DNA from: a virus
Strand: one strand, 5' to 3'
DNA length: 64,000 bases
Virus record (IMG/VR): IMGVR_UViG_3300041409_000348
Location: 1-64,000 of that record
This document shows, in pieces, positions 60,203 to 60,692 of this stretch. Position numbers and translations under genes: made by a program. Positions within the stretch are counted from its first letter, which is position 1. Each line of letters begins with the position of its first letter. Under the pieces are notes generated by a model. That model worked only from the letters and a program-made list of their open reading frames with translations, searched no databases and had not been told where the DNA came from.

Positions 60203-60692
60203 GTGGCCTCAACCTTCGGTGACAGGATCGACACCCTCAAAGAGATGGTCGGTAGCGGCGATCTGGTCGGCACGGTAGTCGTAGACCAGGTGTACGCGCG
60301 CTACCAGCATTTACGAGGGCCTAGACCTGCACCACCCGCGCGGCGGCCAAGCGCTGTACCTTCAGGCCCCGCTGATGGAGAAGTACAGCGACTACCTGAA
60401 CGCCTACGCCCGGCAGGTGCTCGAGGACGGCGGCGAGCAGTCGCTGATCGCAAGCATGGAAGACCTCGCTGAGGACGGCGGGGTCGCCACCCGGGCGCCG
60501 GTCCTGTACGCGAATCTGCGGGCTTCAGGGCATCCGATGGTCGACAGTGACGGCGTGACCGTCTACGACCGGCCACCGCGGCAGCACAGGCTGTCCGAGG
60601 AAGAACTGCGGGCTTTGTGGCGGCTGCATCACCCGGTCCCGTCCAAGTACACCGCGAAGCAGCTCCGCTTCCTGTGGTCGCGGGGGATCTGA
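60203..60692 (+). CDS. neck/head-closure-type protein; +1 frame break at TTA 60311-60313
   Basis: VDQVYARYQH|EGLDLHHPRGGQALYL restores a YQHE..L.HP.GG motif; APV...LR.S downstream. Confidence 0.7.

What the first reader, a model, noticed from the sequence alone, without database searches (positions are those of the whole stretch)
60302..60325. Site 3, and a 12-nt sequence TTACGAGGGCCT shared with site 1
TAC CAG CAT TTA C GAG GGC CTA restores YQHEGLDLHHPRGG. tRNA-His (GUG) could re-pair on UAC with a first-position G:U pair. The 12-mer starting at the TTA is identical to that in the unrelated methyltransferase 50 kb away on the other strand. This suggests a cis-acting recoding signal (it contains an SD-like GAGG) or a common insertion or target preference.
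Basis: partly seen in the sequence, partly recalled or inferred. Interest (0 to 1): 0.8.

Follow-up and report, generated by a model that had tools for sequence, protein, structure and literature searches.

The report
Four-base ribosome hop, phage neck gene
A conserved head-tail (neck) gene of this 103-kb soil actinophage is interrupted by four extra bases that begin with the very rare codon TTA. Ribosomes most likely hop over them. The 12 bases shared with a second broken gene look like a by-product of that hop, not a general signal.

Summary
TTACGAGGGCCT occurs exactly twice in the 103,563-bp phage genome, each time at a frame break: the neck-module gene 60203-60692 and the C5 methyltransferase.

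In both genes, homologues run straight through the break with no extra residue (YQH|E, SGY|xGL). So four bases (TTAC) are surplus.

Relatives of the neck gene carry five other TTA-led gaps (7, 8, 8, 10, 11 nt) at three further positions within about 45 nt. In nine of ten gap alleles the last three gap bases match the codon before the gap at two or more positions, and one pair covaries (CAG..CGG, CAA..CGA). This fits peptidyl-tRNA re-pairing: here tRNA-His moves from CAU to UAC with one G:U pair while UUA waits in the A site.

The "12-mer as recoding signal" idea is not supported:
- EGL is native coding sequence in the neck-gene clade.
- Other gap alleles have other 3' contexts.
- The two neighbouring HNH nucleases are unrelated.
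- Of 146 IMG/VR loci holding the 14-mers, only two are frame breaks, and both are orthologous methyltransferase cassettes.

A chance match of the 8-mer is still unlikely (about 1e-4), so a templated copy or a local 3' preference remains possible.

This scan has already reported the same class (HNH-linked TTA hop gaps) in at least nine other genomes. The published precedent is the phiHau3 terminase.

The parts
60203..60310 (+). 5' segment (codons 1-36, GTG start) of the neck-module gene, frame A, ending ...TAC CAG CAT
   Evidence: N-terminal 36 aa match relatives in one frame
60308..60310 (+). Take-off codon CAT (His36), in the P site when TTA is in the A site
   Evidence: His is invariant in YQHE of homologues
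60311..60314 (+). 4-nt coding gap TTAC: rare codon TTA (60311-60313) and proposed landing triplet TAC (60312-60314)
   Evidence: Absent from all gap-free homologues; TTA is 3 of 14,173 codons in confident ORFs
60315..60692 (+). 3' segment of the gene (EGLDLHHPRGGQ... to stop), frame B
   Evidence: holds the most conserved motif, HPRGGQA
60311..60322 (+). The 12-mer TTACGAGGGCCT, made of the gap TTAC plus the codons GAG GGC CT(A) for E-G-L
59519..60082 (-). Free-standing HNH endonuclease gene (NUMOD4 + HNH_3). It sits between the head-tail adaptor gene and the neck gene, which abut in most relatives
59013..59522 (+). Head-tail adaptor gene (phrog_195), the upstream neighbour
10472..10483 (-). 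Second copy of the 12-mer (site 1). The gap TTAC is 10483-10480, after take-off TAC 10486-10484, inside motif I of the C5 methyltransferase
8980..10522 (-). C5 cytosine DNA methyltransferase gene (PF00145) that contains site 1
10515..11165 (-). HNH endonuclease gene (phrog_8446) overlapping the methyltransferase start by 8 nt. It travels with the TTAC gap in two other contigs
46153..46159 (+). Third TTA-led gap of this genome (TTAGTCC, 7 nt) in the portal gene, downstream of HNH 45109-45984. Used here as a comparison allele

Best explanation
Site 3 is a genuine 4-nt coding gap (TTAC) in a conserved neck-module gene.

Mechanism proposed (inferred, not shown):
- A ribosome with peptidyl-tRNA-His on CAU meets UUA in its A site. 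UUA is nearly unused in this phage and is read only by the scarce host bldA-type tRNA-Leu.
- The ribosome stalls. The peptidyl-tRNA lets go and re-pairs four bases downstream on UAC (U:G at position 1, then A-U and C-G).
- Decoding resumes at GAG and gives ...YQH|EGLDLHHPRGG....
- If UUA is decoded normally, the ribosome stays in frame A and makes an 89-aa dead-end product.

The gap belongs to the class of TTA-led gaps found beside free-standing HNH homing endonuclease genes, and it may mark the allele as resistant to cleavage.

The 12-mer shared with site 1 is not a dedicated signal. TTAC is the shortest TTA-led gap that offers a UAC landing triplet to a Tyr or His tRNA (anticodons GUA and GUG). 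GAG GGC CT is ordinary coding sequence for E-G-L.
For: - Homologues are colinear across the break with no extra residue: 3 annotated Streptomyces phages aligned (11 hit) and 25 or more IMG/VR and metagenome relatives.
- The same 45-nt stretch of this gene holds five other TTA-led gap alleles in relatives: CAG|TTACCCGG|CAT, CAA|TTACCCGA|CAC, CAG|TTACCGCTCAG|CAC, GTC|TTAAAGGGTC|TAC and CTT|TTAGCTA|GAC. All begin with TTA. Gap lengths of 7-11 nt cannot be resolved by a 1-nt shift without adding residues to a stretch that never varies in length.
- In 9 of 10 alleles (neck, portal, methyltransferase) the last 3 gap bases match the preceding codon at 2 or more positions. The chance per allele is 0.197. 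CAG..CGG and CAA..CGA covary.
- TTA is 3 of 14,173 codons, and the phage has no tRNA genes.
- The site 1 gap is inherited. Two independent contigs (L129, L144) carry TAC TTAC GAG GGC with HNH homologues (52% and 83% identity) directly upstream, while their methyltransferase N-terminal regions (first ~185 residues) are only about 50% identical. Eight gap-free relatives tested lack that HNH.
- Against a signal role for the 12-mer: EGL is native (gap-free L016 and L279 read HEGL); in L009 the same GAGGGCCTAGA sits one codon away from the gap; 3' contexts differ among the 10 alleles; 144 of 146 loci with the 14-mers are not frame breaks, nearly all being plain in-frame x-Y-E-G-L; the two HNH proteins are unrelated; folding shows no shared or significant structure.
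- Published precedent for UUA-led bypass: PMC10732093.
Against: - No protein or read-level data. The exact TTAC allele of site 3 was found in no other contig, and its closest relative (L006, 90% aa identity) has a different gap.
- CAT and TAC share only one identical base. The pairing argument rests on G:U tolerance in the P site.
- The zero-frame stop is 53 codons downstream, not immediately after the gap as in phiHau3.
- No 5' stem-loop or SD signal was found.
- HNH linkage in the neck-gene family is loose. Only the window has an adjacent HNH. L009 has one 1.1 kb away. L006, L012 and L280-283 have 200-370-bp spacers with no recognisable nuclease.
- The chance reading of the 12-mer is uncomfortable. 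The in-frame 8-mer collision probability is 1.1e-4. Glu after the gap occurs in none of 79 gap-free methyltransferases. L129's methyltransferase allele shares 14 nt (TTACGAGGGCCTAG, including the rare CTA codon) with site 3.
Confidence: 0.6

Rival explanations
1. The 12-mer is meaningful, in one of two ways. Either the two TTAC inserts share an origin: repair of a nuclease cut at one locus primed on the 8-nt microhomology GAGGGCCT of the other locus and copied TTAC (most plausibly from the older methyltransferase cassette into the neck gene). Or a very short 4-nt hop needs the 3' context GAG GGC C, so only such sites can carry it.
For: - In-frame 8-mer collision probability is 1.1e-4.
- Glu (GAG) after the gap is unique to gap-bearing methyltransferase alleles, 0 of 79 gap-free relatives.
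- The 28-nt block CTT TGC TCA GGC TAC TTAC GAG GGC is invariant in three cassettes whose flanking synonymous sites vary.
- L129 shares 14 nt, including the rare codon CTA, with site 3.
- The methyltransferase cassette is old (HNH 52-83% identity), while the site 3 allele is seen only here.
Against: - Identity stops exactly at 12-14 nt, and nothing upstream is shared.
- Another 4-nt gap (L308, TAT|TTAA|GGC ACA) has a different 3' context.
- EGL is native in the neck gene.
- Only orthologues of site 1 turned up among 146 loci with the motif.
- There is no precedent that I could test for templated 4-nt copying in phages.
- The match was noticed post hoc.
Confidence: 0.2
2. The recoding is a +1 frameshift, not a hop. 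With UUA hungry in the A site, Tyr-tRNA reads the overlapping +1 codon UAC. This adds one Tyr (YQH-Y-EGL; SGY-Y-EGL at site 1).
For: Both 4-nt sites offer UAC in the +1 frame. Out-of-frame A-site binding at hungry codons is an established mechanism (reviewed in PMC10732093).
Against: - No homologue has an extra residue at either junction.
- At site 1 the extra Tyr would fall inside the SAM-binding loop of motif I.
- Relatives' gaps of 7-11 nt at the same spot cannot be solved this way.
- Matching of take-off and landing triplets is irrelevant to this mechanism, yet it is observed.
- For phiHau3, mass spectrometry showed bypass rather than +1.
Confidence: 0.1
3. There is no recoding. The TTAC is an assembly or sequencing artefact, or a plain inactivating mutation in a defective or dispensable gene of an uncultured phage.
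For: The genome is a metagenome-derived virus record. The exact site 3 allele has no second copy. Reads could not be checked.
Against: - A random error or mutation would not be expected to create a TTA-led insert in the 45-nt stretch where at least four other lineages carry TTA-led inserts.
- The same TTAC at site 1 is inherited in two other contigs.
- The gene is otherwise intact and conserved. It lies in the adaptor-to-tail-terminator module.
- The downstream frame keeps 90% GC3.
Confidence: 0.07

Closest known systems
UUA-mediated translational bypassing in the large terminase of Streptomyces phage phiHau3 and prophages StrepC.1 and S. catenulae (Smith et al. 2013 as cited in Antonov et al. 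2023, RNA Biol, PMC10732093)
   Same: A frame-disrupting insert led by the rare codon UUA in a conserved phage gene. The flanks are contiguous in insert-free homologues. The proposed trigger is a hungry UUA in the A site of a high-GC actinomycete host. Bypass, not a 1-nt shift, is needed to keep the conserved junction.
   Different: Here the gap is only 4 nt (7-10 nt there) and the gene is a neck gene, not the terminase. The landing triplet is near-cognate (CAU to UAC, one G:U). The zero-frame stop is far downstream. No 5' stem-loop or SD was found. The paper does not mention homing nucleases (0 hits for HNH or homing), whereas an HNH gene adjoins the gene here.
Phage T4 gene 60 bypass with the mobA HNH homing-endonuclease cassette (Huang 1988; Bonocora 2011, from my own knowledge; gene 60 bypass described in PMC10732093)
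   Same: A coding gap hopped over by peptidyl-tRNA re-pairing. The gap travels with a free-standing HNH gene as a mobile unit. Here this is shown for site 1: HNH plus gap are conserved while the methyltransferase N-terminal region has diverged.
   Different: T4 has a 50-nt gap with a stop codon, a take-off hairpin and a nascent-peptide signal. Here the gap is 4 nt, triggered by a rare sense codon, with no hairpin shown. Protection from cleavage is untested.
Short spontaneous hops at hungry codons in E. coli (Weiss et al. 1987; Gallant and Lindsley; cited in PMC10732093 refs 47-52)
   Same: Peptidyl-tRNA re-pairing a few bases downstream when the A-site codon is slow. Matched or near-matched landing codons.
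   Different: Those are low-level laboratory events. Here the hop would be required for conserved phage genes, and it recurs as an allelic series in nature.
Programmed +1 frameshifting of prfB (RF2)
   Same: A slow A-site codon triggers a forward shift.
   Different: The prfB SD lies 5' of the shift site and the P-site tRNA slips onto an overlapping codon. Here GAGG is 3' of the site, there is no slippery overlap, and no extra residue is tolerated.

Membership tests
UUA-led translational bypass gaps (phiHau3 type) | Frame-disrupting insert that begins with TTA in an otherwise conserved phage gene | tested here: met
   TTAC at 60311-60314; frames A and B
UUA-led translational bypass gaps (phiHau3 type) | Sequences flanking the insert are adjacent in homologues that lack it, so a 1-nt shift would add residues | tested here: met
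   YQH-E is contiguous in 3 annotated phages and 25 or more metagenomic relatives
UUA-led translational bypass gaps (phiHau3 type) | Landing codon that the peptidyl-tRNA can re-pair with | tested here: met
   CAU to UAC pairs with anticodon GUG through U:G, A-U and C-G (inference from pairing rules). 9 of 10 related alleles have 2 or more of 3 identical bases, against a chance of 0.197 each, with covariation CAG/CGG and CAA/CGA
UUA-led translational bypass gaps (phiHau3 type) | TTA is rare in the phage and depends on a limiting host tRNA | tested here: inconclusive
   TTA is 3 of 14,173 codons and the phage has no tRNA genes. The host and its bldA-type tRNA are not known for this uncultured phage
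UUA-led translational bypass gaps (phiHau3 type) | 5' stem-loop and internal Shine-Dalgarno stimulators proposed for phiHau3 | tested here: not met
   The 110-nt fold around site 3 has z = +1.05. No shared hairpin with site 1 and no SD-like run upstream
UUA-led translational bypass gaps (phiHau3 type) | Full-length trans-frame protein with the junction peptide | not testable with these tools
   Needs a reporter assay or mass spectrometry
Homing-endonuclease plus bypass cassette (T4 mobA / gene 60 type) | Free-standing homing endonuclease gene next to the gapped gene | tested here: met
   HNH 59519-60082 (NUMOD4 + HNH_3) lies 229 nt from the gap, between two genes that abut in most relatives
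Homing-endonuclease plus bypass cassette (T4 mobA / gene 60 type) | Nuclease and gap are inherited together, and gap-free alleles lack the nuclease | tested here: inconclusive
   Met for site 1: L129 and L144 have HNH plus TTAC, and 8 of 8 gap-free relatives tested lack the HNH. For the site 3 family: 4 of 5 gap-bearing lineages have an expanded upstream spacer, against 1 of 8 gap-free lineages, but only the window has an adjacent HNH
Homing-endonuclease plus bypass cassette (T4 mobA / gene 60 type) | The insert protects the allele from cleavage by the nuclease | not testable with these tools
   Needs an in vitro cleavage assay
SD-stimulated +1 programmed frameshift (prfB type) | SD-like element a few bases 5' of a slippery P-site codon and a slow A-site codon | tested here: not met
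   GAGG lies 3' of the site, and CAU cannot slip onto AUU (pairing rules)

The most novel reading that the evidence does not exclude
TTAC-GAGGGCCT is a portable minimal hop module. One TTA-led gap was copied from the old HNH-methyltransferase cassette into an unrelated structural gene of the same phage, by repair synthesis primed on 8 nt of microhomology at a homing-nuclease cut. If so, bypass gaps can spread between genes within a genome, and the GAG GGC context helps the 4-nt hop.
Probability: 0.15. Interest if true: 0.75.

Novelty: new variant of a known kind. Interest (0 to 1): 0.55.

Why it matters
Natural translational bypassing is documented for only a handful of genes. This locus adds the shortest form, a 4-nt hop on a near-cognate landing triplet.

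More usefully, one 45-nt stretch of a single gene family carries six different TTA-led gaps. Their take-off and landing triplets match or covary. That is comparative evidence for peptidyl-tRNA re-pairing that needs no experiment to see, and it gives ready-made test constructs.

It also shows how to separate a real recoding signal from coding sequence that merely sits next to the gap.

If the residual reading is true (a gap copied between genes), it would say how such gaps arise.

Tried and rejected
- Shared nuclease specificity as the cause of the shared 12-mer. The HNH next to site 1 (phrog_8446) and the HNH next to site 3 (NUMOD4 + HNH_3) show no similarity (E = 0.5).
- Shared RNA structure. 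Site 1 can form a local hairpin with UUA in the loop. The outer pairs are broken without compensation in L129 and L144, site 3 has no counterpart, and z-scores are unremarkable.
- SD-like GAGG as stimulator. It is on the wrong side of the hop, and it is not general among the 10 alleles.
- Motif census. The 14-mers ACTTACGAGGGCCT and ATTTACGAGGGCCT in IMG/VR gave 146 loci read. Only L129 and L144 are frame breaks; almost all the others are in-frame x-Y-E-G-L in long ORFs. CAGGCTACTTACGA gave no further cassette alleles. One GTDB hit, in a Pirellulales MAG, is ordinary coding sequence. The site 3 21-mer had no hit in GTDB genomes.
- Function by fold. An AlphaFold2 model of the gap-free relative L279 (pLDDT 77) had no Foldseek hit at E <= 0.001, and the best VIA-align Z was 5.2, which is uninformative. 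Pfam and PHROGs gave no family. The "neck" label rests on synteny only.
- GC3 frame plots for a genome-wide list of frame breaks were too noisy to use.
- HNH remnants in the expanded spacers of L006, L012, L278 and L282. There were no Pfam hits and no DNA similarity to the window's HNH.

Full report
**Observation.** The 12-mer TTACGAGGGCCT is present exactly at 60311-60322 (+) and 10472-10483 (-). These are the only exact copies in the whole genome, a single 103,563-bp, 68.8% GC virus record of which the window is the first 64 kb.

At 60311 the frame that starts at GTG 60203 (...VVVDQVYARYQH) reads TTA and then runs out of frame to a stop at 60470-60472. The +1 frame reads TAC GAG GGC CTA GAC... 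and stays open to 60692.

On the minus strand at 10483, MSELRIGSLCSGY is followed by TTA, and the +1 frame continues EGLGMAVESV... into a C5 methyltransferase (PF00145).

**What is broken, and by how much.** The site 3 protein has homologues in 11 Streptomyces phages. There it is a single ORF between the capsid gene and the major tail gene (for example Marky gp19). The three I aligned read ...DQVYAKYQH-ERMDLKHPNGGQ with no residue between H and E.

Seventeen IMG/VR loci and seventeen metagenome loci gave the same result wherever the gene is unbroken. So four bases, not one, are surplus.

The methyltransferase shows the same. MidnightRain gp84 reads AGYGGL and 79 IMG/VR relatives read GY-x-GL, against SGY|EGL here.

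The gene lies between a head-tail adaptor gene (phrog_195) and a homologue of a tail-terminator-like gene. It has no Pfam or PHROG family, and a pLDDT-77 model has no informative fold match. "Neck gene" therefore rests on synteny. In the model of a gap-free relative, the gap falls at the end of a helix, just before the most conserved loop, HExLDLxHPRGGQA.

**An allelic series in relatives.** The same 45 nt of this gene carry other TTA-led inserts in other lineages:
- L006 (90% aa identity): CAG|TTACCCGG|CAT GAG GGC
- L280-L283 (four samples): CAA|TTACCCGA|CAC AAC GGG
- L009 and L010: CAG|TTACCGCTCAG|CAC GAG GGC CTA
- L012, two gaps: GTC|TTAAAGGGTC|TAC and CTT|TTAGCTA|GAC

Portal relatives add ACT|TTAGGCT|GAG and TAT|TTAA|GGC. 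The window's own portal has TTC|TTAGTCC|GAC.

Every insert begins with TTA. In 9 of 10 alleles the last three bases of the insert equal the preceding codon at two or three positions, where random triplets of this window do so with probability 0.197. Three alleles are identical repeats (TAC, CAG, GTC). The pair CAG..CGG and CAA..CGA covaries at the third base, and its middle-base change is a G:U-compatible one.

Site 3 itself (CAT..TAC) is the least similar by identity.

Gaps of 7-11 nt cannot be repaired by a one-base shift without adding residues to a stretch that never varies in length. So a hop (bypass) is the common solution, and by parsimony the solution for the 4-nt gap as well.

TTA is almost unused in this phage (3 of 14,173 codons in confident ORFs), and the phage encodes no tRNA.

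**Site 1 is inherited, and it travels with its nuclease.** The scan of IMG/VR for the 14-mer found two contigs, L129 and L144, with GGC TAC TTAC GAG GGC CT in the same methyltransferase motif. Both have a homologue of the HNH gene 10515-11165 directly upstream (52% and 83% identity). The N-terminal region of their methyltransferases (first ~185 residues compared) is only about 50% identical to the window's. Eight gap-free relatives that I tested have no such HNH.

The block CTT TGC TCA GGC TAC TTAC GAG GGC is invariant in all three cassettes, while flanking synonymous sites vary. This rules out a sequencing artefact for site 1. It fits a mobile unit of nuclease plus gapped 5' gene end, as in T4 mobA/gene 60.

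For the neck gene the link is looser. The window's HNH (NUMOD4 + HNH_3) sits in a 680-bp spacer between two genes that abut in most relatives. L006, L012 and L280-283 have 200-370-bp spacers without a recognisable nuclease. L009 has no spacer but has an HNH_5 gene 1.1 kb upstream. One gap-free relative (L278) has an 846-bp spacer.

**Is the 12-mer a signal?** Five tests argue against it.
1. GAG GGC CT encodes E-G-L, which is the native sequence of this clade. Gap-free L016 and L279 read HEGL, and in L009 the same GAGGGCCTAGA lies one codon away from the gap.
2. The ten alleles have no common 3' context. GAGG occurs only at the homologous E-G codons and in the methyltransferase.
3. The GAGG is 3' of the landing triplet. 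That is on the entry side of the ribosome, where the anti-SD cannot pair (established geometry; inference).
4. The two neighbouring HNH proteins are unrelated, and folding gives no shared structure.
5. Almost all the others are plain x-Y-E-G-L coding.

TTAC itself is explained. A 4-nt TTA-led gap leaves TAN as the landing triplet, which suits only Tyr (GUA) or, with one G:U, His (GUG) peptidyl-tRNAs when N is C or T. Site 1 uses Tyr and site 3 uses His.

**What remains odd.** Two random in-frame 8-mers of this genome coincide with probability 1.1e-4. Glu after the gap is found in all three gapped methyltransferases and in none of 79 gap-free ones, which have G, D, N, L or M there. L129's allele extends the identity with site 3 to 14 nt, including the rare Leu codon CTA (CTA is 12 of 1,135 Leu codons).

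I therefore keep about 20% for a non-chance link. One form is a templated copy of TTAC primed on the GAGGGCCT microhomology during repair of a nuclease cut. The methyltransferase cassette is old, and the site 3 allele is seen only here. The other form is a 3' context that favours the very short hop. A second 4-nt gap with another context (L308) weakens this latter form.

**Mechanism proposed.** The steps are inferred unless a call is cited.
- A ribosome with peptidyl-tRNA-His on CAU stalls on UUA.
- The tRNA re-pairs on UAC, four bases on.
- GAG is read next, and the conserved protein is completed.
- Normal decoding of UUA instead yields an 89-aa dead-end product.

As proposed for phiHau3, this would tie expression to the charging state of the host's UUA-reading tRNA (PMC10732093). 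In addition or instead, the gap may make the allele resistant to the neighbouring homing nuclease. This is untested.

**Comparison and novelty.** The kind is known. UUA-led bypass is published for three terminase genes, with 7-10 nt gaps. This scan has already reported HNH-linked TTA gaps in at least nine other genomes and in this genome's portal gene.

What is different here:
- the 4-nt size with a near-cognate landing triplet;
- a six-allele hot spot in one small gene, with take-off/landing covariation;
- a direct test showing that sequence shared between two gaps need not be a signal.

**Limits.** There are no reads, no protein data, no host and no second copy of the exact site 3 allele. 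The HNH association for this gene family rests on small numbers.

Noticed in passing
window 9156-10157 (-), inside the methyltransferase gene 8980-10522: The 333-codon nested +1 frame (LLPTP repeats) is far better conserved than the long 'main' frame across the middle of the gene. It out-scores the main frame in 62 of 79 relatives where either frame scored (e.g. L129: 253 vs 50 bits).
   Followed up: partly
L009:2590-2640, L012:2570-2650 and other gap alleles: The 3' parts of several inserts resemble the sequence just upstream (L009 insert ..CGCTCAG vs upstream CGCTACCAG; L012 insert ..AGGGTC vs upstream CAGGTC). It looks as if gaps arise as imperfect local duplications headed by TTA. That would give matched landing codons for free.
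   Followed up: no
window 60321-60323; L009; L012 second gap: The rare Leu codon CTA after E-G in the window and in L009 is the same triplet that serves as landing codon of the L012 gap CTT|TTAGCTA|GAC. It may be the relic of a lost gap in the window's lineage.
   Followed up: no
L005 (Gordonia phage Ailee, NC_055773, 2435-4309): The annotated DNA methyltransferase is a two-piece join with an HNH endonuclease gene inside. This is an intron-type invasion of the same gene family that carries a hop-type gap here.
   Followed up: no
L006:3181-3807 (-): A 208-aa ORF next to the neck gene of the closest relative matches Pfam BTG (PF07742, E = 1.3e-10). That family is normally eukaryotic (anti-proliferative proteins), so it is odd in a phage contig.
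   Followed up: no
L278:201-1047: A gap-free relative has an 846-bp spacer between the adaptor and neck genes. The spacer holds a 166-aa ORF of no known family, possibly a different mobile insert that left no gap.
   Followed up: partly
ten gap alleles and the phiHau3 junction GWG|NDPLL: The codon at which decoding resumes has A at its second position in 9 of 10 alleles (GAG, GAC, CAT, CAC, TAC) and in phiHau3 (Asn). The exception is GGC in L308. The sample is small and partly non-independent.
   Followed up: no
window 10515-10522 (-): The HNH stop TGA overlaps the methyltransferase start (ATGTCTGA). So nuclease and gapped gene are translationally coupled, and the cassette includes the gene's own start.
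   Followed up: partly
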